NCBI GenBank assembly: GCA_963784155.1
Contig: CAWAQF010000004.1
Span: 553,422-617,421 of the forward strand
Reading direction: 5' to 3'
Source of the DNA: an uncultured Acidimicrobiaceae bacterium
Lineage (GTDB): Bacteria > Actinomycetota > Acidimicrobiia > Acidimicrobiales > RAAP-2
Length of the DNA stretch: 64,000 bases
In this document: in pieces, positions 17,098 through 43,752 of the stretch
Layout of the letters: each line of letters opens with the position of its first letter
Numbering within the stretch: the stretch's first letter is position 1
Program-made: the position numbers and the translations under genes
The notes under the pieces: model-generated
What the model was told of the DNA's origin: nothing
What the model saw: only the letters and a program-made list of their open reading frames with translations
Databases searched by the model: none

Positions 17098-18750
17098 CCG
17101 CTGACCTGGTGATCCGAGGAGGGACGGTCGTCGACGGGAGCGGGGGACCCGGCCGGCTCTCCGACATCGCGATCTCGGGCGACACGATCGAGGAGATCGG
17201 GCAGGGCCTCGCCGGCACCGTCGAGCTCGACGCGTCGGGATGCGTGGTCGCACCGGGATTCATCGACATCCATACGCACTACGACGCGCAGGTCTTCTGG
17301 GACCCGGATCTCAAGCCGTCCGCCTACCACGGGGTGACCACCGTGATCGCGGGCAACTGCGGATTCACCATCGCGCCGTGCCGCCCCGAGCACCACGACG
17401 CCATCGTGCACACCCTCGAGAACGTGGAGGGCATGAACGCCGCGTCGCTCGCCGCCGGTATCGCCTGGGAGTTCGAGACGTTCCCGGACTACCTCGATGC
17501 GGTCGCCCGGCGTGGCACGGCGGTCAACTTCACCGCCTACATCGGGCACAGCGCCTTGCGCCTCTTCGTGATGGGCGACGCCGCCTACGAGCGCGCCGCG
17601 ACACCCGAGGAGATCGACCGGATGTGCCAGTTCGTGACCGAGGCGATCGAGTACGGCGCGGCCGGGTTCTCGACCAGTTTCTCCTTCGCCCATCGAGGAG
17701 TCGACGGCAAGCCCGTTCCCAGCCGGTTCGCCGAGATGGACGAGGTCGAGGCCCTCTTCACCGTCGGTCGGCAAGACCGGTAAGGGGGTGGTGCTCACCA
17801 CGCCGGGCTGGCAGTGCGAGTACGCCGACGTCTTCACCTGGCAACCCAAGATCGGCCGGCCGTTCACCTGTCCGCTGTTCACCTCGGTGGGCGGCAAGCA
17901 CCTCGAGGTGATCGAGCTCCATCGCAAGGCGCTCTCCCGAGGCGCCGACGTGTGGCCCCAGGTGACACCGCGGCCGCTGACCATGCAGTTCACCCTCGCC
18001 GACGCCTACAACCTCAATGTCGGGGAGGTGTTCGCCGAGCTGATGAAGGTCAGTCGCGAGGTCCGCAAGGCGGCGTTCCGCGACCCCGAGTGGCGGGCCC
18101 GGGCTTTCAACGACCTACAGCACCACTCGACCGGGATGGCCCCTCGCTGGGAGACCTACGAGGTCTCCGAGTCGGAGCAGTTCCCCGAATTACTGGGTCG
18201 CCGGGTGACCGACATCGCACGCGAGCGGAACGGCACACCCCTCGACGTGATGTGCGAGCTCTCCCTTGCCGAGGACCTCCGGACCCGCTTCCGCGCCTAC
18301 ATCGCCAACGACGATCCCGATGCCGTGGCGGGTCTCCTCACCGAGGACCACGTCGTGCTCGGTCTCACCGACGCGGGCGCGCACGTGGACCAGCTGTGCG
18401 ACGCACCTCAGCCGACCGATCTGCTCGGGAACTGGGTCCGTGACCGTCAGGTGATGACCGTCGAGCGCGCGGTCCGGAAGCTGACCGGCGAGGCGGCCGA
18501 CATGTTCGGCATCGAGCGCCGTGGCTATCTGCGTGAGGGGGACTTCGCCGACGTGTGCGTCTTCGACCCGGCGACCGTCGACACCGGGCCGGTCCGGCGT
18601 CTCCGCGACCTGCCCGCCGACGGCGAACGGCTCACCTTCGAGGAGCCGGTCGGGGTGCGCCACATCCTGGTCAACGGGGTACCCATCCGTCGGGACGAGG
18701 TGCAACTCGACCTCGACCGACGACCCGGCACGCGCCCGGCCCTGGTCTGA
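17094..18750 (+). pseudogene. N-acyl-D-amino-acid deacylase (D-aminoacylase) family amidohydrolase, split by one +1 frameshift
   Basis: The N-terminal part (in ORF 15831..17783) has APGFIDIHTHYD. The C-terminal part is ORF 17788..18750. The junction near 17770 reads FTV|VGKTGKGVVLTTPG once one base is removed. Confidence 0.8.
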
Positions 18751-20787: not shown

Positions 20788-22273
20788 ATGACCACCACAG
20801 CTGAGACCGTGGTCCCACTCCGGCACGCCGACCGGTTCTTCGTCGCCGGGGAGTGGGTGGCCCCTTCCTCCGCGGCCACCATCGACGTGATCGACTCGAG
20901 CACCGAGACGGTCTACTTCCAGGTGCCCGAGGCGCAGCCGGCCGACGTCGACCGCGCGGTCGCCGCCGCCCGTCGGGCCTTCGACGAGGGCCCCTGGCCC
21001 GGTCTCACCCATTCCGAGCGGGCCGAATACCTCCGCGGGCTCGCGGCAGGCCTGCGCGATCGGGCCGAGGACATCGGTCAGATCTGGCCCCGCGAGTCCG
21101 GTGCGCTCCAGGTCGTCGCGCGCTACGGGGCGGCCGGCATCGCCGGTGCCTTCGACGACTACGCCGATCTCGCCGAACGATTCCCCTTCGAGGAGCCTGC
21201 CAAGCCGTCGTCGGGCGAGTTCGGCCTCCTGGTCCGCGAGCCGGTGGGGGTGGTCGGCGCGATCATCCCGTGGAACGCACCGATCGGCCTGATCACCTAC
21301 AAGCTCGCTCCGGCCCTCCTCGCCGGCTGCACGGTCGTCCTCAAGTGCTCGCCCGAGGCGCCCGGCGACGCCTACGTCGTCGCCGAGATCGCCGAGGCGA
21401 TCGGTCTGCCCCCCGGGGTGCTCAACGTCGTGACCGCCGACCGGGAGGTCTCCGAGCTGCTTGGTACGCGATCCGCGCGTCGACAAGATCACCTTCACCG
21501 GATCGACCGCTGCCGGCCGGCGGATCGCCTCGATCTGCGGCGAACGGATCGCACGGTGCACCCTCGAACTCGGCGGGAAGTCCGCCGCGGTGATCCTCGA
21601 CGACATGGACCTCGCAGAGGCGGCCGCCACCCTCGCACGTGCCGAATGCATGCTCGCCGGGCAGGTGTGCTCGTCACTGACCCGCATCGTGGTCAGCCGT
21701 CCTCGCCACGACCAGCTGGTCGACGCGCTCGCCGGCACCTTCTCCGCCGTCCGCGTCGGCGACCCGTTCGACCCGGCAACCCAGATGGGACCGCTCGTCT
21801 CGGGCCGTCAGCGAGACCGGGTCGAGGGCTACATCGCCAAGGGGAAGGAACAGGGAGCCACATTGGTCACCGGTGGTGGACGGCCGAAGGGTCTCGATCG
21901 GGGTTACTACGTCGAGCCCACGGTCTTCGCCAATGTGGACAACTCGTCGGTGATCGCGCAGGAGGAGATCTTCGGCCCGGTGCTCTCGGTCATCCCTGCC
22001 GACGACGAGGACGATGCGGTGGCGATCGCCAACGACACCATCTACGGGCTCAACGCCTCGGTGTTCACCCACGACGTGGACCGGGCTCGGGCGGTGGCCC
22101 GCCGGCTCCGCACCGGCACCGTCGGTCACAATGCGTTCCGCACCGACTTCGGCATCGCCTTCGGGGGCTTCAAGCAGTCCGGCATCGGGCGCGAGGGGGG
22201 CGTCGAAGGCCTCCTTCCCTTCCTCGAGACGAAGACGGTGGTGCTCGAGGGCGTGCCGGCCGAGTACCGCTGA
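20788..22273 (+). pseudogene. aldehyde dehydrogenase family protein with one +1 frameshift
   Basis: The N-terminal half is in ORF 20788.. (IIPWNAP, VLKCSPE). The C-terminal half is in ORF 21461..22273 (FTGSTAAG, ELGGKS, EEIFGPV). At the junction near 21461, ELL|VRDPRVDKITFTGS is restored by removing one T. Confidence 0.85.
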
Positions 22274-22325
22274 GCCGCGGTCCCGACGCGGCCTCACACA
22301 TTCGGTGATCGGAAAGGACGGAGGG

Positions 22326-24138: not shown

Positions 24139-25306
24139 ATGGACTTCCGGTTGGGTGAACGCAGCGACGCCTTCCGCGACGAAGCCTGGCGGTTCCTCGA
24201 CGAGCACCTCACCGAAGAGGTGCGCGAGGGGATCCACACCACCGGCGTGTACCACGACCGCGACTTCCACCGGGCCCGGGCCGAGCACGGTCTCCTCGCC
24301 CCCGGATGGCCGAAGGAGTTCGGCGGCCAGGGCCGCGACCCGATCGAGGTTCTGGCCTTCGGGGAGGCGTTCCAGAACGCGGGGGCGCCCACCTATGCGG
24401 TGGGGACCACCCTCATGGTCGCCAACATCATCCGCCACGTGGGGAACGAGTCACAGAAGCAGGAGATCCTTCCCCGGGCGCTCTCCGGGGAGATCCTCAT
24501 CGTGCTCGGCTTCACCGAGCCCGAGTCGGGCTCCGACGTGGCCGCCGCACAGACCCGCGCCGTGCGGGACGGGGACGAGTGGGTGATCAACGGGCAGAAG
24601 ATGTTCACCACCAACGCGCAGGAGGCGCGACTACGTGTTCCTGCTCACCCGTACCAATCCCGACGTGCCGAAGCACAAGGGTCTGACCACCTTCCTCGTG
24701 CCGTTGCGCCAGCCCGGCGTCGAGATCCAGCCGGTGTACACCGTGTCCGGCGAGCGGACCAACCTGACCTTCTACACCGACGTCCACGTCGACGACTCGC
24801 TGCGGATCGGGGAGGTCGACGGAGGCTGGGACGTGATGACCGTCAGCCTCACCTTCGAGCGATCCGGACCGCAGGGAGGCCACTCGGTCCGGCTGCTCCA
24901 CGCCATGGAATCGTGGGCCGCCTCCTCGGCCGACGGGGAGGGACGTCCGCGATCGGAGGACCCCGACGTACTGGGGAGGCTCGGCCGGGCCGCCGCCGAG
25001 ACGGAGATCGCGGTCCTACTGGCCCGCCGCTGCGCGTGGATCGAGCACTCGGGAGGTCTCCCCGGTGTCGAGGGGTCGATGGCCAAGCTCTTCGCGTCGG
25101 AGGCGCTGACAAGGCAGGCCGCCGACTTCGTCGACCTGCTCGGCCCCGACGGGGTTCGGAGCGCCGACGACGCGAACTCGATCGAGGGCGGGCTCGCCGA
25201 GTACTTCCACCGCTTCGCGCTCGGGACGACGATCTACGGGGGCACGAGCGAGGTCCAGCGCAACGTCATCGCGCAGCGAGGCCTCGGTCTGCCCCGCTCT
25301 TCCTGA
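24139..25306 (+). pseudogene. acyl-CoA dehydrogenase with one +1 frameshift
   Basis: The N-terminal part has GFTEPESGSDVAAAQT and WVINGQKMFTTNA. The C-terminal part is ORF 24635..25306 (IYGGTSEVQRNVIA). The junction near 24630 restores NAQEADYVFLLTRT. Confidence 0.85.
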
Positions 25307-25437: not shown

Positions 25438-25878
25438 TTACCGCCTTTCGATCTTCGCAGCGAGCTCGTCGAAGAGGTCGGCGAGATCCTTGAGCCCCCC
25501 TTGGGTGTGGACATTGAGCCGATCGAGGATCTGCACGGTGTCGTCGTACGTGTGCTGCGACCGGACGTCGCTCGCCTGACTCTGCACGTTCTGGCCGACC
25601 ATGATCACGGACAACAGGACCAGCTGGAGGAACGTCTGTGCGATCCACGCGATGATGCCCTCGCCCCCCGGCTTCAGCGCCGGCGGCAATCCGACGAGCG
25701 CGAGCGCAGCGAACGCGTAGGCGCACCACATCGATCCGACAATGTTCGTGAGGAAGACGGCGATCTTCGCATTGACTCCGTTGGCTCTGCTGACTTCGCT
25801 CTGCAATCCACGGATGCTGATCGCCTGACTGATGAGGTGGTGCGCCTTGACGGGCTGCGGAATCTGGGTGTCGGCCAT
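25438..25878 (-). CDS. small integral membrane protein (DUF1003-like / low-affinity iron permease-like; family uncertain)
   Basis: 146 aa with two hydrophobic helices (VFLTNIVGSMWCAYAFAALALVGL and FLQLVLLSVIMVGQNVQ) followed by a charged helical tail. Confidence 0.6.
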   Translation of the reverse strand: MADTQIPQPVKAHHLISQAISIRGLQSEVSRANGVNAKIAVFLTNIVGSMWCAYAFAALALVGLPPALKPGGEGIIAWIAQTFLQLVLLSVIMVGQNVQSQASDVRSQHTYDDTVQILDRLNVHTQGGLKDLADLFDELAAKIERR

Positions 25879-26017
25879 CGGATCTCCTTGTCGGGTCGCC
25901 GTCGATCACTGCACTCTCCGCACCGTAGGTGCTCTCCGGCTGATCCCCTCGGATCCGCCGACAACCGGAGGCGCCGGTCAGGGAGTCGCTGCCCAGGGCC
26001 CCGGAAAGGGCTGGTGC

Positions 26018-26458
26018 TCAGCGAGCCGGGGTGACCGACCGCACAGGTTGGCAGGACCTAAGAGAACCGAGTAATTCGCTCTTGACCTCGTGAAGTGGCC
26101 CTCGTCCGCGACGCGGAATCCGGGGGTTGTCAGCATTCGTGGGTCGCTCGGTTACCCGCCACGGCCACACGATCGGAGTAGCCGGGGTGGCGGGCGACGT
26201 GTCGTGAGCGAGGGTTGGTGAAGCTGTCGGTCGCCCCTCCATCTCAGGAGCAGACCCGGTGGGTCCGAGTCGTGGAGGGGGAGGCTGTTTGGGTGGGATC
26301 ACCGTCCCCCAACGGCACATGGAGAGCACGCGGTAGCGGCGATCAAGGGACCTCGTCAGTCGAGCAAGTGTCGACTTTCCCGAGGCTGGGAGCCCGCAGA
26401 TCAGCACGAGTCGAGTCCGGGGTCCAGCGACCAGATCGTCAGTCCGGTCTGAGGTCAC
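26018..26458 (-). pseudogene. remnant of a P-loop kinase/AAA-type ATPase gene
   Basis: Only the first ~45 aa look protein-like (RLVLICGLPASGKSTLARL, a Walker A motif). The remainder is Pro/Arg-rich and looks like out-of-frame text. Confidence 0.35.
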
Positions 26459-26658
26459 GGAGCAAGGCTACGGGACTCTGAGCGGCCTGCCCCCGAACGC
26501 GGGATGGGTGGTCCACTTCGGCACGGCGGGGCAGTCAACGCTCACTCGCTGCACACCGATAGCGGGCAATTCTGGCGGCCGCCCGGCTGGCCCAAACGTT
26601 TCAGAGTGCTCTTCACGCACCGGTCACATGCTGAGCGATTCGTCGTGTCATTTCATCG

Positions 26659-26687
26659 TTGATTTGTTCCCCGTCCCTGCTGACAAT
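26659..26687 (+). promoter_or_regulatory. candidate promoter (TTGATT-17 nt-GACAAT) for the Hcp-fusion gene
   Basis: Sigma70-like hexamers with 17 nt spacing lie ~70 nt upstream of ATG 26760. The direct repeat CCCGTCCCTG occurs at 26670 and 26711. Confidence 0.3.
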
Positions 26688-26759
26688 TGGCGAGTCCATC
26701 GTTTGCGACGACAAGGCAACCCGTCCCTGAGTCGCCAACGAATCGAAAAGGAGCGACCA

Positions 26760-27593
26760 ATGAAGATCAGGAAACAGGCGACACTGCTGGTCATCGCGGT
26801 GGTGGCGACTGCCGTAGTGGCGGTGGGAGTAACGGCGGCGGTCACCGCTGGCGCGAGCACTGGCGGTACGACCTACTACGCGTGCATCAGATCAGGGAAG
26901 CTGGTCGATGTGGGCGTGGCAGCGCCGTCATGCCCGGGTGGAGCGAGCCAAATTTCTTGGAACTCGCAGGGTTCTGCGGGTCCGACCGGTCCCCAGGGGC
27001 CGGTCGGTCAGGCGAGCGTGGTCAACGCGCCGGCCGCGTCCGATTTCGCCGCAGCCTGTCCGCAGCCGCCCCCGCCCACCAGCGATGGGGGGACGCCGTC
27101 GCCATCCGGAGTACATGCGTTTCTGAACATTCCGGGCATACCAGGTGAGTCGACCGATTCAACCCATACAGGTCAGATTGATGTGCTGTCGTGGTCGTTC
27201 GGGATGGCCGGTCCGACGAACGGTCAAGGATGTGTGGCCAGTCATTCGTCGACAGGGCAAGGAGGAGTGAGCGGTCAGCAGCTGTCGATCGTCAAGAATG
27301 TCGACAAGGCATCGCCGATGCTCATGGTCTCGTCGGGCGACGGTGGCCACATCTCGAGCATGACCCTCAGTCTGCACAAGGGCACCTCCTCGGCGGATTA
27401 CCTCGTCTTCACCTTCAGCAACGTAGCCGTTACCAGTGTTCAGTGGGCACACGACGGCAGCGGTGGTCCGCAGGAGGAAGCGACCTTCGAGTATGGCCAC
27501 CTGAGTGTCAGCTACGCGCCGCAGAACCCAGACGGGACGCTCGGGTCGCGGGTCCTCGGCTGCTTCGACATCGATCTTCAGCAGTCCTGCTAG
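26760..27593 (+). CDS. secreted fusion protein: signal peptide + conserved 2-Cys module + short collagen-like G-X-Y run + Pro-rich linker + C-terminal Hcp (T6SS tube protein, PF05638-like) domain
   Basis: ATG at 26760 lies 7 nt after AAGGAG. The signal peptide is MKIRKQATLLVIAVVATAVVAVGVTAAVTAGA|S. The 2-Cys module is TTYYACIRSGKLVDVG..C..ISWNSQG (26868-26969), followed by GSAGPTGPQGPVGQA (26970-27014). Residues ~118-277 (27111-27590) align motif-by-motif with canonical Hcp: FLNIPGIPGESTDSTHTGQIDVLSWSFGM, VKNVDKASPMLMVSSGDGGH, DYLVFTFSNVAVTSV and EEATFEYGHLSVSYAPQNPDG. Confidence 0.8.
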   Translation: MKIRKQATLLVIAVVATAVVAVGVTAAVTAGASTGGTTYYACIRSGKLVDVGVAAPSCPGGASQISWNSQGSAGPTGPQGPVGQASVVNAPAASDFAAACPQPPPPTSDGGTPSPSGVHAFLNIPGIPGESTDSTHTGQIDVLSWSFGMAGPTNGQGCVASHSSTGQGGVSGQQLSIVKNVDKASPMLMVSSGDGGHISSMTLSLHKGTSSADYLVFTFSNVAVTSVQWAHDGSGGPQEEATFEYGHLSVSYAPQNPDGTLGSRVLGCFDIDLQQSC

Positions 27594-27622
27594 GCAGTCG
27601 TCGTTTCCGACGGAGCATCGAC

Positions 27623-27670
27623 AGCTGCGCGGAGTGTCCCACCGACAGGCGTGGGCCACTCCGCGCAGCT
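27623..27670. terminator. large perfect hairpin (14 bp stem AGCTGCGCGGAGTG / CACTCCGCGCAGCT, 20 nt loop holding a second 5 bp stem), probable bidirectional terminator
   Basis: Lies 30 nt downstream of the Hcp-fusion stop, between convergent genes. No U-tract is present, as is common in high-GC actinobacteria. Confidence 0.55.
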
Positions 27671-27844
27671 CCGGCTCCACACAGCCCCTTGATACTGAGA
27701 ACTGACGTGCACCCTCCACTGAACTCACGGTCCGGTCAACGGTGAGGCACGAGTAAGTCTCTCGGTATGGCGATCAAGAGGTGTCGGCGACTGAGGGAGC
27801 GAGACTGCCCCGTGATGCAGGGTGGATCGGGCAGTACTCCAGTG

Positions 27845-28273
27845 CTACGAGCCGGCGAGATAACCACGCTCGACGTACGGGAAGTCCGCCATCTCGCTGT
27901 CGGCGATGCCATCGTCGAAGTACGCACGCACTTCGACGATCTTTCCTTCGCGCATGACGTACCACTCGGTTCCCCGCGACATGACCCATTGAGCGGTGCC
28001 GGGAGGCCGCCAACGGCAGCTCCACTCGCTCACGACCACGTCTCCGGAGGCGATGATCTGGTCAATCCCCCAGGTTGGGTCGAGTGTCCGCTTGAACGAC
28101 CGCCAAAACCGCGCGAGGTGCTCAGAGCCCCGGATCGTGTCATAGCTCTGGGGAAGGAAGTAGTGGACGACGTCATCGGCAAGCGTTGGGGATGAGTCGT
28201 CCAGTTCGCCGTTCTTGCATCTGTCGAAGTAGCGCCGCACGACCTCGACGTTGTGCTCCTCGACGGCCTCCAT
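27845..28273 (-). CDS. nuclear transport factor 2 / SnoaL-like family protein
   Basis: ATG at 28273 follows GGAGGTGAAGGC. The 142 aa product begins MEAVEEHNVEVVRRYFD and contains ASGDVVVSEWS, typical of a SnoaL-like polyketide cyclase fold. Confidence 0.7.
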   Translation of the reverse strand: MEAVEEHNVEVVRRYFDRCKNGELDDSSPTLADDVVHYFLPQSYDTIRGSEHLARFWRSFKRTLDPTWGIDQIIASGDVVVSEWSCRWRPPGTAQWVMSRGTEWYVMREGKIVEVRAYFDDGIADSEMADFPYVERGYLAGS

Positions 28274-28557
28274 GCCTTCACCTCCGACGGTTGGAGCCTG
28301 GCGCCGGAGATGGTACTCGTGCTCCTGAACGCAGGTCGGCGTCACCGACCGGCACTCCGGGCAACCCTTGCTCGAGTTGAGCTCGGGCATCCGACAGCTC
28401 CGCTGGGAACAATCCCAGGAAGTTCAGGGCGACCGAGGTCGAGCCTCTCGACGCACTCCGGATGCCACTGACTTGATGGCGGTTCCTCACGGAGGTTCTG
28501 GGCACAATGCTCCCGCAACATCGCCCTTCCTCACGCCGGTGATCGACCCCGAAGGGC

Positions 28558-30025
28558 TCAATCACTTCGCGGTGCGGGACCGATGGTGGCGGCAACACGT
28601 TGGCCCGAGCGGATGGCGCTCTCCATATAGCCGGCCAGTGTCTCGGTGTGTTCACCAGCGAACCAGATCGGTCCGTAGGGTTCCCGTAGCAGAGGCCAGA
28701 ACCGGGTCATCTGTCCCGGGGCGTAGACGGCATACCCGCCGCGGGTGTAGGGCTCGTTCGCCCACGCCATGGTCGTGGCGATGGTCGACTTGCCGGCCCT
28801 CCCTTCGGGGTAGACGAGGTCGAGTTGTTGTTGGAACGACTCGATCCGGGCTTGATCACCAAGGGCCGCCCCCTGCTGGGCAGCAGAGCCGGTGACGAAC
28901 TGGGTCAAGACACCAGCGCTGTCGGCGCTCCCAAGGATCGAGTCGGTGGCGTCCCAGCCGACCCCGAAGGGCTGGTCGGTAATGGTGAACCCCGACAGTC
29001 CCTCGGACAGCCAGAAACGTTCGTCGTACTGGGTGGACACCTTGAGGGCGTGCCCGAGATCGAGCTCGGCGATCATGGAGCTGAGACCGGCCGACAGCGG
29101 TGGGTCGAATGTGACGTTCCGGAGCACTGGCGGGGGAACGGCGAGTACTAGCTTCGCCGCGTCGACAGTGCCATTCGCACCCGCTCCCGATCGGAAGTGG
29201 ACGCGCACACCCCAGGGTTGCTGTTCAACCCTGGTCACCGGTGAGTCGAGCCTTACGGACGATCCGAGGTCGTGTGCCATGGCCTCGGGCAACGCGCTGT
29301 TGCCGTTCGCGATCCGCATGGTCTCTACACCGGATTCCGGCAGCGCCTCGTCGACCACCGATTGTTGCAGGACAAAGAGAAGCGATACCTGATCGAGCTC
29401 GGCGTTGTAGTTCCCGCGGTACTCCGACTGGACGAGCAACATCGCATTGGGATCGAGCGTCTGGGTTGCGGCGAAGCCAGCGAGGCTCTGCTGGTCCCAC
29501 TCCTCGGCCTTGCCTGCCCGCTCAGGATGGGCCGGGTCGAGGTCGCCGGCCATGGTGATCAAGGCGTTGCCAAAGGCCAAATATCCGGACAGTGCTTCCG
29601 GATCGGCGTTGCCGACTGCGGACAGAACGCTGCGTCGACCCGCCCGGTAGAACGCGGCCGTCTCGAGCTTGTCGGCGGGTCGACGGGACAGAGCAAGGTT
29701 GTAATGGCGGGAAAGCGCCTGGATATGACCGTGATTGTCGTCGATCGACTCACCACCGGCCTCGACGTGGAGGTTGTCGGTGAACGGCTCATGGACAGTG
29801 TGAACGCGGCCTCCCACCCGGCCGCGCGCCCTCCAGCACAACGACGTCCCAGTGTGCGTTCCGGAGGGCCACGGCCGCCGAGAGCCCGGCCAACCCGCCG
29901 CCGACGATGGCGACCCGGTGCCTCGTCGGGACGTCGGGGCGTGCCTGAGTGCTACAGCCCGAGAGCGCGGGGATCGTCGCCGCCAGGCCTGCGGCGTTCA
30001 AGAACTGGCGTCTCGTCGGCGTCAC
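28558..30025 (-). pseudogene. flavin-dependent amine oxidase with Tat signal and lipobox; one +1 frameshift
   Basis: The N-terminal ORF 29789..30025 has TRRQFL (twin-arginine), LSGC (lipobox) and VAIVGGGLAGLSAA (FAD fold). The body is ORF 28558..29841 (amine-oxidase blocks, FAGEHT). The junction near 29833 restores VVLEARGRVGGRVHTV. Confidence 0.8.
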
Positions 30026-30459
30026 TGCACGGCCACACCGTCACGGCTTTGCAACACGGACTCACCTTAGGTCTGCACCGTTGGCAGAACCTCAGGCATC
30101 AGGTTCGTCGAAGATCCGCCGACCCTTCCTGCCCGGGAGACCCAGAAATTGCCTGCTTGGCTCAAAGAGATTCGTTCCCCGGACACCTCTTGTGTCCCAC
30201 CGAGCCGGCGTTACCTGTGTGAGCCGCCGGACGCAAGGCATGGGCAACCAACCGGTCGAGAAACGGGAGCAGTCGGATGATGATTCGGACGTGGACGGCG
30301 TGGGGGCGCCCTGCGTTACCCAGGTGCTCGACGGATCCTCTTCCGTCGGCGACAACAATCGAGATTGGGTGACCCCCGGGTGGGAGAGCAGTCGCGTCAG
30401 TGTTCGAAGGCCGTCCAGCACGAGTGCTGGCGGGCACGCCGGCACAGGTCGGGATCAGC

Positions 30460-31845
30460 TCATGACGGCCCGGTGAACCCTCCCATCAGCGAATGCACCG
30501 GTATGCCGTCGATCACGGTCATCGCGACCGTCGGCCGATCGAGCAACGAGTCCCACTCGCTGTCGAGGACGATCAGATCGGCGGGATCGCCCGACTGCGG
30601 TCGTCCCCGAGGTGGCGTGCCTCGCGGATCCGCGGCGAACAGGGCGAGCGCAGTCTCGAGTCCGACCGCCTCCGAGGGGTTGACTTCCCGGCCCGACACC
30701 GTGCGGCGCCGAACCGCGGCCGAGATGGTCACCCATGGATCGAGGGGACCGTAGGGCGCGTCCGAGCTGAGCACCGTCGGGACACCGGCGGTGAGCAACG
30801 ACGCGAGCCGATGGAGGTCGGACTCCTCGGAGGGCTCGATCTCTTCGAGGTACCGGTCGCCTCGGGTGAAGACGAGCCCGGGCTGGACGGTGACGCTCAC
30901 CCGGCTTCTGGCGAGCAGGCCGACGACGTCGCCGTCGACCAGCGAGGCGTGCTCCACCCTGTCCCGCTGATCGAGTCCGCACGAGAGCGCCAGCACCACG
31001 CTCGCCGAATCGAGACAGTGCACCGCCACGGATCGTCCTGCCGAGTGTGCGTCCGAGATTCGCGCCGAGAGCTCGTCGGCAGAGGGGAGCTGGGTCTCGT
31101 CGAGCACGATCTTGACCGGGCCGAGGTGGACCCCGTCGACGCCGGTGGTCTCGGGATCCCCGGTCATGGCGGTGACCCGCTGGGGGAGCGCGGCGCGCGC
31201 GAGGATCTCGAGCTCCTCGGGTCCGTTGGTGCCGGTCGCGTCGGTGACCGCGACGACGCCTCGCCGGGCCATCCAGCGGCCGACGCGGACGAGATCGGGG
31301 GGCATGGCAGGGAGGCGGCTGCGGATCCAGCCGTCGAGGCGGTAGAGCACCCCGGTCGGTTGCCGCGCCCCGTCCACGAAGATCCCCGCGGGCCAGTCGG
31401 CGGGGGAGGTGGACAACACGGCCTCGAGGCCGGCCGAGTCGAGCACCCAGTACATCCCGGTTCGGTCTTGGATCCGGACCGGCCCGGCCGCCGCCTCGTC
31501 GAGCCGGCCGCGGTCGAGGGCTCCACTCGCCGCGAGGTCGTACCCGACGCCGCGGAGCCACCCCTCCGGACGGCTCGCTCGCGCTTCGTGGAGGACCGCG
31601 CCGAGCCCCCCGCCTGCGGCGAGCGCAGCGGGGGAGCAGTCGACCGAGTCCCACGCGGCGGCCTGGGACATCAGGTGGACGTGATGGTCCACGAGACCGC
31701 GGACGGTGGGACGCCCCTCGAGATCGACGACGTGCCCGATCGGATCTTCCTCGGGGTCGAGATCGACCACCCGACCGTCGCGGACGACGAGATCGACCTC
31801 GACCCCGGGCGCGGTGGAGGCGCGTCGCAGGAGCCAGGCTGTCAT
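30460..31845 (-). CDS. amidohydrolase family protein (amidohydrolase_3-like metal-dependent hydrolase)
   Basis: 461 aa with the HxH motif GLVDHHVHL, plus AVHC and SDAP blocks. Confidence 0.8.
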   Translation of the reverse strand: MTAWLLRRASTAPGVEVDLVVRDGRVVDLDPEEDPIGHVVDLEGRPTVRGLVDHHVHLMSQAAAWDSVDCSPAALAAGGGLGAVLHEARASRPEGWLRGVGYDLAASGALDRGRLDEAAAGPVRIQDRTGMYWVLDSAGLEAVLSTSPADWPAGIFVDGARQPTGVLYRLDGWIRSRLPAMPPDLVRVGRWMARRGVVAVTDATGTNGPEELEILARAALPQRVTAMTGDPETTGVDGVHLGPVKIVLDETQLPSADELSARISDAHSAGRSVAVHCLDSASVVLALSCGLDQRDRVEHASLVDGDVVGLLARSRVSVTVQPGLVFTRGDRYLEEIEPSEESDLHRLASLLTAGVPTVLSSDAPYGPLDPWVTISAAVRRRTVSGREVNPSEAVGLETALALFAADPRGTPPRGRPQSGDPADLIVLDSEWDSLLDRPTVAMTVIDGIPVHSLMGGFTGPS

Positions 31846-41420: not shown

Positions 41421-42375
41421 TCAGAGAGAGCTCGCCAGCGAGGCCAGCAGTTCCTTGGTGCGAGTGGCCGACGCGAGTCGCTCGTCACGGTTCTCGCCGA
41501 TGGGCACCACCCGAGCCGAGATGTCGGTGGCGCCGGCCTCGCCGAAGGCGCGGAGCCGCTTCTCGACCGCCGCCTCGGTACCCGCGGCCAGGATGTCGCC
41601 GACGTTGCGGGCATCACCGGTGTCGAGCAGGCGCTGGTAATTGGGGGAGATCTCCGCCTCGGCCAGGATCCGGTTGGCCCGCTCCACCGCGCTCGCCACC
41701 TCGTCCTCGCGGCAGAGGCAGACGGGAACTCCCGCGACGACGCGTGGAGCAGGGCGCCCGGCCGCGTGCGGCCGCGCGGGTGATCCGAGGAACGACGTGC
41801 GCTCCGATCGCCTTCTCGTCGGCCATCCACAAGATGGTGCCCGCGGTCCGCTCGCCGGCGAGCCGGAGCATCTTCGGGCCGAGGGCGGCGACGAGGACGG
41901 GGGTGGGGGCGAGGTCGGTGATGTCGAGGGGATTGTGGATCCGGAACCGTCCGTTCTCGACGTCGACCGGGCCGGGCCCCGCCAGGGCCGCATCGAGGAC
42001 GTCGAGGTACGCGCGCAGGGTATCGGCCGGGCGTTCGTAGGGGAGACCGAGCATCTCGTCGATGATCCAATGGTGCGACACACCGAGGCCGAGGGAGAGC
42101 CGCCCTTCGCAGACCGCCTGGACCGACAGCGCCTGCTGGGCCAGCGCGATCGGGTGACGGGGCTGGATCGGGACGACGGCGGTCCCGATCTCGAGCCGCG
42201 TGGTCGCCGTTCCGACCAGCGCGGCGGCGGTCAGCGCGTCGAACTCGTCGGGAATCTGGGGAACCCACACCGAGGCGAGCCCGGCTTCGTCGGCCCACCG
42301 GGCGTCCTCGCACATCCGCGCGACCTTGGTGCGGTAGCGCCCTCGCTCGGGGCCGATCATCAACCCGATGCGCAT
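41421..42375 (-). pseudogene. LLM class F420-dependent oxidoreductase with one +1 frameshift
   Basis: ATG at 42375 follows GGGAGGATCGAG. The N-terminal part is in ORF 41614..42399 and the C-terminal part is in ORF 41421..42083. The junction is near 41755. Confidence 0.8.
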
Positions 42376-42480
42376 CTCGATCCTCCCGCTCGCCCGCACG
42401 GTGCCGAAGGCGCCCGTTGCAGCGGAACTGTCACTCTCCTAGGATGGGAACACCATACTCGCACAGCGGGAGCCCTATTC

Positions 42481-43752
42481 GTGAGCGAGCTCGACGCCCT
42501 CGACTTCTTCAGCGACCGGTCACTCGTCGCCGATCCCTACCCCTACTTCGATCATCTGCGCGAGGGCTGCCCGGTGCAGCGCGAACCGCATCACGAGGTG
42601 GTGATGGTCACCGGGTACGACGCCTCGATGGACGTGTACCACGACGTGGAGCGGTTCTCGTCGTGCAACTCGGTGAGCGGTCCCTTCCCCGGCTTCCCGG
42701 TGCCACTGGTCGGCGACGACGTGAGCGAGCTCATCGAGGCCCACCGTGACGAACTGCCGATGAGCGATCAGCTGCCGACGCTCGATCCTCCGAAGCACAC
42801 CGAACACCGCGCACTGCTCGGCCGCATGCTGACCCCGAAGCGCCTGAAGGAGAACGAGGACTTCATGTGGCGACTGGCCGATCGCCAGATCGACGAGTTC
42901 CTCTCCAGGGGGGAGTGCGAGTTCGTCGGCGAGTACGCGAGCCCGTTCACCCTCCTCGTGATCGCCGATCTGCTCGGAGTGCCGGAAGGCGACCACGAGC
43001 AGTTCCGCGACGAATGGCTCGGGCGCGGGAAGACCATGGGGAGCACCCGGCACGACGCGCTGGCGCGCAACCCGCTCGGATTCCTCTACGGGGCGTTCAC
43101 CGGGTACATCGAAGACCGGCGAAGGGCGCCGCGCGGCGACGTGCTGACCGGTCTCGCGGGCGCCACCTTCCACGACGGGAGAACCCCGGAGGTCATCGAC
43201 GTCGTCCGCATCGCGGTCAACCTTTTCGCCGCGGGGCAGGAGACGACGGTCCGGCTGCTCGGCGCCGCACTCCAGGTCATCGGCGAGCGCCCCGACCTGC
43301 AGGCCGCACTCCGGACCCACCGCGATCGGATCCCCAACTTCGTCGAGGAGACCCTGCGGACGGAGAGCCCGGTCAAGGGCGACTTCCGGCTCTCACGTGT
43401 CCCGACCACGATCGGTGGCGTCGGCATCCCGGCGGGCACCACGGTGATGGTGCTGAACGGAGCGGCCAACCGTGATCCCGACCGGTTCGAGAACCCCGGG
43501 AAGTTCGACGTCGACCGGGTGAACGCTCGCCAGCACGTCGCGTTCGGTCACGGCGTGCACACCTGCCCCGGGGCCTCGCTCGCACGGGCCGAGGCCCGGG
43601 TGAGCCTCGAGCGGCTGCTCGATCGCACCGCCGACATCCGGATCTCGGAGGCGGAGCACGGACCGCCCTCCGACCGCCGCTACCGCTACGTCCCGACCTT
43701 CATGCTGCGCGGCCTCACCCACCTCCACCTCGAGTTCGATCCGGTCGGCTGA
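42481..43752 (+). CDS. cytochrome P450, paralog of 9298..10548
   Basis: GTG at 42481 in ORF 41641..43752. Heme loop is FGHGVHTCPGASLA. Shared blocks with the paralog include DPYPY, KRLKENE and ADLLGVPE. Confidence 0.9.
   Translation: MSELDALDFFSDRSLVADPYPYFDHLREGCPVQREPHHEVVMVTGYDASMDVYHDVERFSSCNSVSGPFPGFPVPLVGDDVSELIEAHRDELPMSDQLPTLDPPKHTEHRALLGRMLTPKRLKENEDFMWRLADRQIDEFLSRGECEFVGEYASPFTLLVIADLLGVPEGDHEQFRDEWLGRGKTMGSTRHDALARNPLGFLYGAFTGYIEDRRRAPRGDVLTGLAGATFHDGRTPEVIDVVRIAVNLFAAGQETTVRLLGAALQVIGERPDLQAALRTHRDRIPNFVEETLRTESPVKGDFRLSRVPTTIGGVGIPAGTTVMVLNGAANRDPDRFENPGKFDVDRVNARQHVAFGHGVHTCPGASLARAEARVSLERLLDRTADIRISEAEHGPPSDRRYRYVPTFMLRGLTHLHLEFDPVG

What the first reader, a model, noticed from the sequence alone, without database searches (positions are those of the whole stretch)
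26760..27593. Signal-peptide + collagen-like + Hcp (T6SS tube) domain fusion with no secretion machinery around it
The C-terminal ~160 aa match the canonical Hcp fold motif by motif. For example, FLNIPGIPGESTDSTHTGQIDVLSWSFGM corresponds to MFIKIGDVKGESKDKTHAEEIDVLAWSWGM of P. aeruginosa Hcp1, and the later blocks KNVDKASPML, DYLVFTFSNVAVTSV and ATFEYGHLSVSYAPQNPDG also fit.

Canonical Hcp has no signal peptide and is expelled by a contractile sheath. Here the domain sits behind a classical Sec signal (KIRK, hydrophobic core, AGA), a conserved two-cysteine module, four to five G-X-Y triplets and a PQPPPP linker.

The genomic context looks actinobacterial (F420 LLMs, many P450s, FadE pairs, IS110), where T6SS is not expected. 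No TssB/C, VgrG, baseplate or ClpV gene is present in 64 kb.

A trimerising collagen stalk attached to a ring-forming tube protein, exported by Sec, would be an undescribed use of the Hcp fold. It could act as a surface or extracellular ring, an adhesin, or a domesticated phage-tail remnant.
Basis: partly seen in the sequence, partly recalled or inferred. Interest (0 to 1): 0.82.

Follow-up and report, generated by a model that had tools for sequence, protein, structure and literature searches.

The report
Exported collagen-stalked Hcp protein without T6SS
This is a real, conserved gene in soil actinobacteria (Acidimicrobiales) that places the tube protein of the type VI secretion "nano-syringe" behind an ordinary export signal and a short collagen stalk, so the protein fold appears to be used outside the cell with no syringe involved.

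Summary
ORF 26760-27593 (+, 277 aa, AAGGAG ribosome-binding site) has five parts:
- a basic and hydrophobic leader ending A-G-A|S;
- a two-cysteine hairpin module;
- five G-X-Y triplets;
- a Cys plus Pro-rich linker;
- a full-length Hcp domain (PF05638 E=2.8e-25; P. aeruginosa Hcp1 E=8.5e-21; AF2/Foldseek TM 0.78-0.88 to T6SS Hcps, against at most 0.57 to phage tube proteins).

About 23 full-length homologues (40-72% identity) share the architecture, six invariant cysteines and G-X-Y indels in whole triplets. Those that could be placed lie in Acidimicrobiales MAGs.

No T6SS, eCIS or phage gene turned up in the 43 window ORFs scanned or around seven other members and relatives. The gene carries its own conserved upstream region and a terminator hairpin.

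The leader, Cys-hairpin and collagen part is a widespread N-terminal chassis (184 representatives at E<=1e-10). It carries interchangeable heads, including pentapeptide repeats, Hcp, phage tail collar, BclA_C and Lcl_C. Leader-only Hcps also occur in metagenomes.

Best reading: a Sec-exported, disulfide-stabilised, trimeric collagen-like fibril with a co-opted T6SS-type Hcp head. Ring formation and function are inferred. I found no description in the literature searched. It is a new variant of known kinds.

The parts
26656..26759 (+). Conserved upstream region (probable promoter and 5' UTR), including the AAGGAG ribosome-binding site at 26748-26753
   Evidence: blastn identity to L004, L007, L009 and L002 extends 104-150 nt upstream of the ATG although the flanking genes differ. 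Alignment A4 shows conserved blocks TCGTTGATTTG, GCTGACAATGG and ATCGTTTGCGACG, and an invariant GGAGC. The simple sigma-70 scan found nothing.
26760..27593 (+). Complete coding sequence, 277 aa plus stop
   Evidence: There is a 100% identical database protein, P0001, and 23 full-length homologues.
26760..26855 (+). Leader, residues 1-32: MKIRKQ, a hydrophobic core with invariant G23, and A-G-A|S
   Evidence: Kyte-Doolittle peak 2.68. A-x-A is at the aligned -3/-1 positions in 19 of 23 homologues. 139 of 144 chassis proteins have such a leader, with Cys1 at median residue 41. Cleavage was not tested.
26856..26969 (+). Two-cysteine hairpin module, residues 33-70 (TTYYAC...GKL..VG..AP.CP....ISWNSQ)
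   Evidence: C42, C58 and W67 are invariant or nearly so. Mean pairwise identity is 0.61. The profile finds 184 representatives at E<=1e-10, almost always at residues ~30-80. AF2 predicts three short strands at low confidence.
26970..27014 (+). Collagen-like run, five G-X-Y triplets (GSAGPTGPQGPVGQA), residues 71-85
   Evidence: This is the most conserved segment (0.72). Family members have 4-8 triplets, and the length differences are in whole triplets. Distant relatives have 8-21 triplets, four of them with Pfam Collagen hits at E<=1e-3.
27015..27107 (+). Post-collagen segment with invariant SVV and C100, then the Pro/Ser/Thr-rich linker (PQPPPPTSDGGTPSPS), residues 86-116
   Evidence: A85, S86, V87, C100 and P101 are invariant. 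The linker is the least conserved part (0.37). A cysteine before the domain co-occurs with a cysteine in or near the beta2-beta3 loop in P0020, P0028 (both of its Hcp domains), P0036 and P0040.
27108..27590 (+). Hcp (T6SS tube protein) domain, residues 117-277, with C158 in the long loop and a C268...C277 C-terminal pair
   Evidence: PF05638 E=2.8e-25. Hcp1 1y12 E=8.5e-21. AF2 block-mean pLDDT ~70-94 outside loop 149-171. Foldseek PDB TM 0.78-0.88. Viral library TM at most 0.57.
27623..27670 (+). GC-rich hairpin 30 nt after the stop, a probable intrinsic terminator
   Evidence: A 14-bp outer stem. The 107-nt region folds at -54.6 kcal/mol, z=-4.8, and 0 of 200 shuffles do as well. The T-tract terminator scan did not call it.

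Best explanation
The gene encodes a T6SS-independent, exported, collagen-stalked protein whose distal head is a T6SS-type Hcp beta-barrel.

**Proposed mechanism**
1. The N-terminal leader takes the protein through Sec. It is probably cut by signal peptidase I after A-G-A32. This step is inferred from sequence.
2. Outside the cytoplasm the six conserved cysteines form disulfides. The likely pairs are C42-C58 in the hairpin, C100-C158 tying the linker to the long Hcp loop, and C268-C277 stapling the C-terminus. The pairing is inferred from co-occurrence.
3. The Cys-hairpin module and the 5-triplet G-X-Y run bring three chains together into a short triple-helical stalk. This is inferred from triplet-preserving indels and from relatives with long collagen runs.
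4. The flexible Pro-rich linker lets the Hcp heads associate. The most likely form is the usual six-membered ring, made from two trimers. This is inferred and is the weakest step.

**Where it comes from.** The protein is one product of domain shuffling on a widespread actinobacterial chassis of leader + Cys-hairpin + collagen. That chassis displays many different C-terminal heads, in the manner of BclA, Scl and Lcl surface fibrils.

**Likely role.** A surface or extracellular structural or binding element, not a projectile.
For: **The domain.** The Hcp domain is full-length and T6SS-like. It is much closer to T6SS Hcps than to phage tubes.

**It cannot be made on its own.** There is no in-frame ATG, GTG or TTG between residue 100 and M149 (sequence).

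**All parts are conserved.** Across 23 homologues every segment is conserved, and the G-X-Y run and hairpin are more conserved than the Hcp domain.

**Cysteines.** The family has six invariant cysteines, against 0-4 at unconserved positions in the ~160-190-aa Hcp-only hits (most have 0-2). Of the chassis proteins, 119 of 144 have an even cysteine count. Established knowledge: exported actinobacterial proteins are disulfide-bonded.

**Leader.** A-x-A sits at the end of the leader in 19 of 23 members, and comparable small-residue motifs appear in distant relatives.

**Collagen run.** G-X-Y length varies only by whole triplets, from 4 to 8. Relatives carry 8-21 triplets, several with Pfam Collagen hits.

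**Chassis.** 184 representatives match at E<=1e-10. Heads include Pentapeptide 14, Hcp 6, Gly_rich_2 3, Collar 2, BclA_C 1 and Lcl_C 1.

**No machinery nearby.** No T6SS, eCIS or phage genes were found in the window ORFs scanned or within about +-10 kb of seven other members and relatives. There is no conserved neighbour.

**Self-contained unit.** The gene has its own conserved upstream region and a terminator hairpin.

**Ring compatibility.**
- PDB entries 4kss, 4ksr, 6ap1 and 7o42 are engineered fusion proteins with Hcp1 at the C-terminal end of the chain, that is, with a partner fused to Hcp1's N-terminus. From my own knowledge, Hcp1 serves there as a hexamerising scaffold.
- Relative P0028 has two tandem Hcp domains behind a collagen run, so a trimer would supply six domains.

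**Broader pattern.** Plain leader + Hcp proteins also exist in metagenomes.
Against: - No signal-peptide predictor, membrane-topology predictor or multimer model could be run.
- The hydrophobic stretch is long (about 26 residues) and could be an uncleaved anchor.
- Five triplets is very short for a stable triple helix. Pfam Collagen does not hit the query itself.
- A trimeric stalk does not match a hexameric ring, which forces a two-trimer assumption.
- The N-terminal 116 residues are modelled at low confidence (block-mean pLDDT 27-61).
- The rest of the genome was not available, so a T6SS or eCIS elsewhere cannot be excluded.
- No functional clue comes from the neighbouring genes.
Confidence: 0.6

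Rival explanations
1. Same exported protein, but the N-terminal hydrophobic segment is not cleaved. It acts as a signal-anchor (N-in, C-out), so the short stalk holds the Hcp head a few nanometres above the membrane, inside the wall zone.
For: The hydrophobic stretch spans about 26 residues with a Kyte-Doolittle peak of 2.68, which is the length of a transmembrane helix. AF2 models residues 4-24 as one helix. There is no sortase, lipobox or other retention motif in the mature part (sequence), so an anchor would explain retention.
Against: G23 is invariant, and A-x-A sits at the aligned -3/-1 positions in 19 of 23 members. Similar small-residue motifs appear in distant relatives whose leaders otherwise differ. 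This is what a signal peptidase I site looks like. A total leader length of 32 residues is normal for Gram-positive signal peptides (established knowledge).
Confidence: 0.25
2. The Hcp head does not form rings. It is simply a globular cap on a trimeric collagen-like hair, like the C-terminal domain of BclA, and acts as a generic surface-nap or adhesin domain.
For: The same chassis carries trimeric heads such as BclA_C and phage tail collar, and non-ring heads such as pentapeptide repeats. A 3-chain stalk fits a 3-fold head more naturally than a 6-fold one.
Against: The Hcp hallmark motifs are retained. Tandem-Hcp relative P0028 gives exactly six domains per trimer. No trimeric Hcp assembly is known to me (own knowledge).
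Confidence: 0.3
3. It is an ordinary tube subunit of a T6SS or extracellular contractile injection system encoded elsewhere in the genome. The N-terminal extension would be an annotation or assembly artefact.
For: The Hcp domain is clearly T6SS-like. Orphan hcp genes away from T6SS clusters are common in Proteobacteria (bioRxiv 10.1101/2024.05.07.592589). The window shows several probable frameshifts.
Against: - There is no in-frame start codon that could give a stand-alone Hcp domain.
- The N-terminal 116 residues are conserved at protein level in 23 homologues from independent samples, with an invariant ribosome-binding site before the same ATG.
- The six invariant cysteines do not suit a cytoplasmic tube.
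- No machinery genes appear in eight contexts.
- T6SS has not been reported in Actinobacteria, and actinobacterial eCIS tubes belong to a different family (own knowledge).
Confidence: 0.04
4. It is a remnant of a prophage or tailocin tail (a tube or fibre protein) that has been domesticated.
For: - Collagen-like runs and tail-collar heads are typical of phage fibres, and the chassis includes Collar heads.
- The Hcp fold is homologous to phage tubes.
- The gene lies in a stretch of lower GC, 62-66% against 68-73% in the flanks, with GC3 0.73 against 0.85-0.9.
Against: - No relatives were found in IMG/VR.
- The phage GenBank set gave only two short unannotated records.
- Viral structural matches are weak (E=3e-5, TM at most 0.57, 10-17% identity), against T6SS Hcps at E=7e-14, TM up to 0.88 and 25-31% identity.
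- No phage genes appear in any context examined.
Confidence: 0.03

Closest known systems
Hcp / TssD, the tube protein of type VI secretion systems (e.g. P. aeruginosa Hcp1, PDB 1y12)
   Same: Same domain over its full length (PF05638 E=2.8e-25). About 30-35% identity to Hcp1, with the GES...H..EIDV.SWS and DKASP motifs. Same predicted fold (TM 0.78-0.88).
   Different: - It has a 116-residue N-terminal extension comprising a leader, a Cys hairpin, a collagen run and a Pro linker.
- It has six conserved cysteines.
- It scores below the NCBIfam TssD cut-off.
- Its relatives are in monoderm Acidimicrobiales.
- No sheath, baseplate, VgrG or ClpV genes are nearby.
- It would be exported by Sec instead of being expelled by a sheath.
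Bacterial collagen-like surface proteins with globular heads (Bacillus BclA, Streptococcus Scl1/Scl2, Legionella Lcl)
   Same: The layout of export signal, G-X-Y run and a C-terminal globular head. Chassis relatives actually carry BclA_C and Lcl_C heads. A trimeric fibril projecting from the cell surface is the expected form.
   Different: - The head is an Hcp domain, which none of these proteins has.
- The G-X-Y run is only five triplets.
- The N-terminal Cys-hairpin module is specific to this actinobacterial chassis.
- There is no LPXTG or exosporium anchoring motif.
Hcp fusion proteins: specialised 'Hcp-ET' effectors (Hcp with a C-terminal toxin) and engineered ATPase-Hcp1 fusions (PDB 4kss, 6ap1, 7o42)
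   Same: The Hcp domain is used as a module within a larger polypeptide. In the engineered chains Hcp1 lies at the C-terminal end, so a partner is fused to its N-terminus. From my own knowledge these fusions still form hexamers.
   Different: Natural Hcp-ET extensions are C-terminal toxins delivered by a T6SS (own knowledge; the N-terminal position of HCP1 in short toxins is noted in PMC3482391). Here the extension is N-terminal and is an export and stalk module with no toxin.
VgrG / phage T4 gp27 hub proteins (a trimer of tandem tube-like domains forming a pseudo-hexamer)
   Same: Relative P0028, with a collagen run and two tandem Hcp domains, would give six tube domains per trimer. That is the same 3-to-6 symmetry solution.
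   Different: This is a resemblance in logic only. The window protein has one Hcp domain, no gp5/needle part and no baseplate context. The comparison rests on my own knowledge and was not tested.

Membership tests
T6SS tube protein Hcp/TssD (functional member of a T6SS) | Hcp domain (Pfam PF05638) and Hcp fold | tested here: met
   PF05638 E=2.8e-25 over the full model. 1y12 E=8.5e-21. Foldseek TM 0.78-0.88.
T6SS tube protein Hcp/TssD (functional member of a T6SS) | Reaches the curated score of the NCBIfam TssD model TIGR03344 | tested here: not met
   40.2 bits against a cut-off of 58.9.
T6SS tube protein Hcp/TssD (functional member of a T6SS) | Leaderless ~160-aa protein that starts directly with the Hcp domain and assembles in the cytoplasm | tested here: not met
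   There is a 116-residue conserved N-terminal extension with a basic and hydrophobic leader. No internal start codon is available. The leaderless metagenome relatives start MAFDAFL at residue 1.
T6SS tube protein Hcp/TssD (functional member of a T6SS) | Encoded in a genome with TssA-M, VgrG and ClpV, usually clustered | tested here: inconclusive
   None were found in the 43 window ORFs scanned or within about +-10 kb of seven other members and relatives. The whole genomes could not be scanned.
T6SS tube protein Hcp/TssD (functional member of a T6SS) | Forms hexameric rings that stack into a tube inside a sheath | not testable with these tools
   No multimer prediction or experiment was possible. 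N-terminal stalks on one ring face would hinder head-to-tail stacking (inference).
Bacterial collagen-like exported proteins (BclA/Scl/Lcl kind) | N-terminal export signal | tested here: inconclusive
   Sequence features fit: K/R n-region, hydrophobic core and A-G-A|S, conserved in 19 of 23 members. SignalP was not available.
Bacterial collagen-like exported proteins (BclA/Scl/Lcl kind) | Uninterrupted G-X-Y repeats under selection for register | tested here: met
   The query has 5 triplets. The family has 4-8, differing only by whole triplets. This is the most conserved segment. Relatives have 8-21 triplets, several with PF01391 hits. PF01391 does not hit the query itself.
Bacterial collagen-like exported proteins (BclA/Scl/Lcl kind) | Forms a collagen triple helix (trimer) | not testable with these tools
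   This needs CD, collagenase digestion, SEC-MALS or multimer modelling.
Bacterial collagen-like exported proteins (BclA/Scl/Lcl kind) | C-terminal globular head distal to the stalk | tested here: met
   The Hcp domain is at residues 117-277. Chassis relatives carry BclA_C, Lcl_C, Collar and Pentapeptide heads.
Actinobacterial leader + Cys-hairpin + collagen chassis (unnamed; defined here by profile A2) | Module C-x(8-30)-C-x(5-16)-W-[N/D/G]-x(2-3)-G directly after a leader and directly before G-X-Y repeats | tested here: met
   The query seeded the profile. 12,553 representatives match at E<=1e-3 and 184 at E<=1e-10, with the module at residues ~30-80. 144 of 146 top hits fit the pattern and 139 have a hydrophobic leader. 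No Pfam family covers the module.
Phage tail tube / eCIS tube proteins | Closest structural and sequence relatives are viral or eCIS tubes, within a tail gene cluster | tested here: not met
   BFVD best E=2.8e-5, TM at most 0.57. There are no IMG/VR relatives and no tail genes nearby.

The most novel reading that the evidence does not exclude
Hcp has a second life independent of the T6SS. Sec-exported (and possibly Tat-exported) Hcp domains, either bare behind a leader or mounted on collagen or coiled-coil stalks, would assemble into rings or short tubes outside the cytoplasmic membrane of monoderm Actinobacteria and other bacteria. These would form a previously unrecognised class of extracellular or wall-associated ring structures, for example a conduit or docking platform in the wall, or a sponge that captures small proteins in the ring lumen as Hcp does with T6SS effectors.
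Probability: 0.2. Interest if true: 0.85.

Novelty: new variant of a known kind. Interest (0 to 1): 0.62.

Why it matters
Hcp is used as the marker of type VI secretion, both in genome annotation and in secretion assays. This family is labelled 'type VI secretion system secreted protein Hcp' or 'tube protein Hcp' in JGI and NCBI. Yet it sits in a lineage and in contexts with no T6SS, behind a Sec-type leader.

If the reading is correct, three things follow:
- Pfam-based Hcp counts would overestimate T6SS occurrence in soil metagenomes.
- The tail-tube fold has been recruited as an exported building block, which widens the known evolutionary repertoire of contractile-injection components.
- A large and unstudied chassis of actinobacterial collagen-like surface proteins with swappable heads comes into view. 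That gives a handle on cell-surface biology in uncultured Acidimicrobiia.

The practical stakes are modest until a function is shown.

Tried and rejected
- **Contig look-up for the window's own protein.** The exact-match look-up for P0001 was not on record, so the window's record name and wider genome could not be obtained.
- **Conserved partner gene.** Eight contexts were compared and none is shared. A 131-aa and a 134-aa ORF lie downstream in two loci, but by eye their translations look unrelated (no alignment was run). The only shared neighbour is an amine oxidase in L012, in a different arrangement.
- **Phage origin.** The IMG/VR scan found no relatives. tblastn against phage GenBank records gave only two short unannotated records matching the Hcp part. 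The BFVD fold search gave only weak tube and baseplate hits.
- **Promoter and terminator scan.** No sigma-70-like promoter was found, and the one terminator-like hit lies on the wrong strand inside the CDS. The downstream hairpin was found by folding instead.
- **Rfam.** Nothing in the whole window.
- **Upstream motif.** No second copy in the window with up to 3 mismatches, and no exact match in the 12 loci held at that point.
- **L003.** The second hit in one MAG is a frameshift-ridden copy at a contig end and is uninformative.
- **Cluster look-up.** It gave no organism names beyond one Solirubrobacteraceae MAG protein.
- **Literature.** Six full-text searches (Hcp with signal peptide, collagen-like, Actinobacteria, Gram-positive, PF05638 or T6SS-independent) found no description of leader-bearing or collagen-fused Hcp. 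Two papers were checked and were not relevant.
- **Not attempted.** A second structure job on the tandem-Hcp relative was not run, because the tools return no coordinates or multimers, so ring geometry could not have been read out.
Full report
**1. What is in the sequence**

The + strand carries an ORF at 26760-27593. It starts with ATG, seven bases downstream of AAGGAG (26748-26753), and encodes 277 aa. A longer GTG-initiated reading from 26508 is listed mechanically. However, the homologues begin at the MKIRK position, and GGAGC just before that ATG is invariant in seven loci.

The protein reads as follows:
- M-K-I-R-K-Q, then a hydrophobic stretch at residues 7-32 ending A-G-A|S;
- TTYYAC42...C58P...ISWNSQ;
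- five G-X-Y triplets (G71-A85);
- SVVNAPAASDFAAAC100;
- PQPPPPTSDGGTPSPS;
- a ~160-residue C-terminal domain ending C268FDIDLQQSC277.

**2. The Hcp assignment is solid**

- Pfam PF05638 matches residues 121-252 across the whole model, E=2.8e-25.
- phmmer against PDB sequences gives P. aeruginosa Hcp1 (1y12) at E=8.5e-21, then other T6SS Hcps.
- An AF2 model built on the family alignment has block-mean pLDDT of about 70-94 for the Hcp part, apart from a disordered loop at 149-171.
- Foldseek against the PDB returns only T6SS Hcps at the top (E=7e-14, TM 0.78-0.88 normalised to the target, 25-31% identity).
- Against predicted viral structures the best hits are tail-tube and baseplate proteins at E=3e-5, TM at most 0.57 and 10-17% identity.

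The head is therefore a T6SS-type Hcp and not a phage tube. It does not reach the curated cut-off of the NCBIfam TssD model (40.2 against 58.9 bits).

**3. It is a conserved family, not an artefact**

The protein database holds an identical protein plus 23 further proteins of 266-299 aa covering 88-100% of the query, at 40-72% identity. All carry PF05638; 22 of them were aligned with the query.

- Invariant positions in the alignment include six cysteines (C42, C58, C100, C158, C268, C277), the block G77-x-Q-G-P-x-G-x-A-S-V, and Hcp hallmarks.
- Mean pairwise identity by segment is: G-X-Y run 0.72, Cys hairpin 0.61, post-collagen 0.56, Hcp 0.49, leader 0.46, Pro linker 0.37. The N-terminal parts are thus at least as constrained as the Hcp domain.
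- No in-frame start codon exists between residue 100 and M149, so the Hcp domain cannot be made alone.
- The genome-borne homologues that could be placed are in uncultured Acidimicrobiaceae and Acidimicrobiales MAGs.
- The window itself has 68% GC and a metabolism-rich gene content typical of actinobacteria. Its assignment to that order is an inference.

**4. Export signals**

SignalP was not available, so I give the sequence evidence only.

- The n-region has three basic residues. The hydrophobic segment peaks at Kyte-Doolittle 2.68.
- G23 is invariant. A-x-A sits at the aligned -3/-1 positions before S33 in 19 of 23 members. The rest are small-residue variants, except one with a gap at -1.
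- Comparable small-residue motifs close the otherwise dissimilar leaders of distant relatives.
- There is no lipobox and no LPXTG.
- The six invariant cysteines contrast with 0-4 at unconserved positions in the ~160-190-aa Hcp-only hits of the same search, most of which have 0-2.
- A cysteine just before the Hcp domain co-occurs with one in or near the beta2-beta3 loop in P0020, P0036, P0040 and both domains of P0028. That pattern suggests a linker-to-loop disulfide.

An even and conserved cysteine count is the usual signature of exported, disulfide-bonded proteins in Actinobacteria (established knowledge). A cleaved signal peptide is my preferred reading. An uncleaved signal-anchor is the main alternative, because the hydrophobic stretch is about 26 residues long. 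Either way the Hcp domain ends up outside the cytoplasm.

**5. The collagen-like run**

Five triplets is short, and Pfam Collagen does not hit the query. Within the family, however, the run is 4, 5, 6, 7 or 8 triplets, so length changes come in whole triplets. It is also the most conserved segment.

More distant leader-bearing Hcp proteins with the same Cys hairpin have 8-21 triplets. Four of them (P0026, P0028, P0035, P0036) have Pfam Collagen hits at E<=1e-3 or close to it. This argues that the G-X-Y register is selected, which means a triple helix and hence a trimer. The helix itself is untested.

**6. The N-terminal part is a common chassis**

A 46-position profile of the hairpin plus the first triplets was scored against 1.84 billion representatives. 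It found 12,553 proteins at E<=1e-3 and 184 at E<=1e-10 (some of the weaker hits are surely owed to the collagen part). The module lies almost always at residues ~30-80.

Of the top 146 hits:
- 144 fit the two-cysteine pattern;
- 139 have a hydrophobic leader;
- Cys1 sits at median residue 41;
- the following G-X-Y run has a median of 7 triplets (range up to 28);
- 119 have an even cysteine count.

Pfam on 122 of them gave these domains:

| Pfam family | Members |
|---|---|
| Collagen | 43 |
| Pentapeptide repeats | 14 |
| T6SS_HCP | 6 |
| Gly_rich_2 | 3 |
| Phage tail Collar | 2 |
| PQQ_2 | 2 |
| BclA_C | 1 |
| Lcl_C | 1 |
| Lamin tail | 1 |

Other families appeared in single members, and many proteins had no hit beyond Collagen. 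The Hcp domain is therefore one of many heads shuffled onto a shared export-and-stalk module. This is the architecture of known bacterial collagen-like surface fibrils such as BclA, Scl and Lcl.

**7. No contractile machinery, and a self-contained gene**

I scanned 43 window ORFs spanning 2-61401. These were all those of 250 aa or more picked by GC3, plus smaller ones next to the gene. They gave only metabolic enzymes, an ABC ATPase, a TetR regulator and an IS110 transposase. Four had no Pfam hit.

The called genes within about +-10 kb of seven other members and relatives also show no T6SS, eCIS or tail genes, and no conserved partner. These are P0002, P0003, P0009, P0013, P0019, P0036 and P0031, the last sitting at a contig end with only one flank available.

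DNA similarity between the window and four homologous loci stops about 100-150 nt upstream of the ATG. It ends at the stop codon in three of them and 46 nt past it in L004, although the neighbours differ. The upstream block is conserved. A strong GC hairpin follows the stop at 27623-27670 (z=-4.8). The gene looks monocistronic.

It lies in a 25.5-30.5 kb stretch of lower GC, and its GC3 (0.73) is below that of its neighbours (0.85-0.9).

**8. A wider class of leader-bearing Hcps**

The metagenome scan returned 222 relatives of the Hcp head. Most of the 80 kept are leaderless ~160-aa proteins starting MAFDAFL. A subset carries a plain leader directly in front of a full Hcp domain:
- L021-L023 and L025 (4 Cys);
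- L026 and L032;
- L035, which has a TRRTLL twin-arginine-like motif;
- L045;
- L072, L077 and L083 (8 Cys);
- L086, which has two adjacent genes of this kind.

The neighbours of L072 are a haemagglutinin-repeat protein and serpin-NHL proteins, not T6SS genes. Others use coiled-coil-like spacers (P0029, P0059).

P0028 has a collagen run followed by two tandem Hcp domains. A trimer of that protein would supply six domains, the number in an Hcp ring.

**9. Mechanism, and what is shown versus inferred**

*Shown:*
- the architecture and its conservation;
- the T6SS-type nature of the head;
- the modular chassis;
- the absence of machinery genes in all contexts available.

*Inferred:*
- Sec export and cleavage at A32|S33;
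- the disulfide pairs;
- trimerisation through the hairpin and G-X-Y run;
- closure of the Hcp heads into a hexameric ring using two trimers.

Two observations make the ring plausible. PDB entries 4kss, 4ksr, 6ap1 and 7o42 are engineered fusion proteins with Hcp1 at the C-terminal end of the chain. From my own knowledge, Hcp1 serves there as a hexamerising scaffold, so N-terminal fusion partners are tolerated by the ring. The tandem-Hcp relative P0028 points the same way. Ring formation is still the weakest step.

Stalks attached to one ring face would hinder head-to-tail stacking, so I expect rings and not long tubes (inference). The function is most likely structural or binding at the cell surface. 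Nothing in the neighbourhood narrows it further.

**10. Known or new**

Full-text searches for Hcp combined with signal peptide, collagen-like, Actinobacteria, Gram-positive, PF05638 or T6SS-independent found nothing describing such proteins. Public annotations simply call them T6SS Hcp.

Both building blocks are known kinds, and the combination and its T6SS-free context appear undescribed. I therefore rate it a new variant of a known kind, of moderate to high interest. It matters mainly as a caution for Hcp-based T6SS inference, and as an entry point to an unstudied family of actinobacterial surface fibrils.

Noticed in passing
window 24139-25306 (also 20788-22305, 41641-43749, 17638-18747): Several genes look frameshifted. 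An acyl-CoA dehydrogenase is split between two frames: the N and part of the M domain in 24139-24640, and the rest of M plus the C domain in 24587-25303. An aldehyde dehydrogenase ORF matches only positions 1-200 of 461. A 703-aa ORF matches only the last third of P450. This probably reflects indel errors of a long-read MAG assembly and not pseudogenes.
   Followed up: partly
window 28474-30087 (- strand amine oxidase) and L012 5729-7325: The flavin amine oxidase 1 kb downstream of the Hcp gene is 85% (nt) and 87% (aa) identical to one on a JGI contig. That contig also carries a family member (P0019), which is only about 49% identical to the window protein and sits in a different arrangement. 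It is the only neighbour shared between contexts.
   Followed up: partly
window 26656-26759: The upstream non-coding block is conserved across loci whose flanking genes differ. It includes TCGTTGATTTG, GCTGACAATGG and a possible GCGAC...GTCGC stem just before the ribosome-binding site. It may be a promoter plus a regulatory 5' UTR element. There is no Rfam match and no second copy in the window.
   Followed up: partly
window 25500-30500: This stretch has lower G+C (62-66% against 68-73% in the flanks) and contains the Hcp gene (GC3 0.73 against 0.85-0.9 in neighbours). It also holds a small membrane-protein-like ORF (25438-25878, -), a P-loop-containing ORF with no Pfam hit (26018-26458, -), a SnoaL-like gene and the amine oxidase. 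It is possibly a horizontally acquired or rearranged patch.
   Followed up: no
P0028 (metagenome protein, 441 aa): This protein has a leader, a Cys hairpin and 17 G-X-Y triplets, followed by two tandem Hcp domains, each preceded by a cysteine. A trimer would give six Hcp domains, the same 3-to-6 symmetry solution as VgrG/gp27 hubs.
   Followed up: partly
L021-L026, L032, L035, L045, L072/L077/L083, L086: These metagenome genes encode a plain N-terminal leader directly followed by a full Hcp domain. One has a TRRTLL twin-arginine-like motif (L035). L086 has two adjacent leader-Hcp genes. The L072 type has 8 cysteines and lies next to haemagglutinin-repeat and serpin-NHL proteins. Exported Hcp therefore seems to extend beyond the collagen-fused family.
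   Followed up: partly
L012 11603-13666: A 687-aa exported-looking protein with a weak lysyl-oxidase Pfam hit and a Big_7 domain lies 0.8 kb downstream of a family member. This is curious next to a collagen-like protein. It was not seen in the window or in the other 11 loci held at that point by tblastn.
   Followed up: partly
L003 174-942: A second, frameshift-ridden copy of the family gene sits at the end of a short contig, in the same Acidimicrobiales MAG that carries an intact copy (L002). It may be an assembly duplicate or a decaying paralogue.
   Followed up: no
   Followed up: no
P0045, P0057 and 144 chassis proteins (P0065-P0210): The leader + TTYYAC...C...ISWNSQG + collagen module has no Pfam family of its own. 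It fronts many proteins whose C-terminal parts have no Pfam hit at all, so this is a large uncharacterised family of putative actinobacterial surface proteins.
   Followed up: partly
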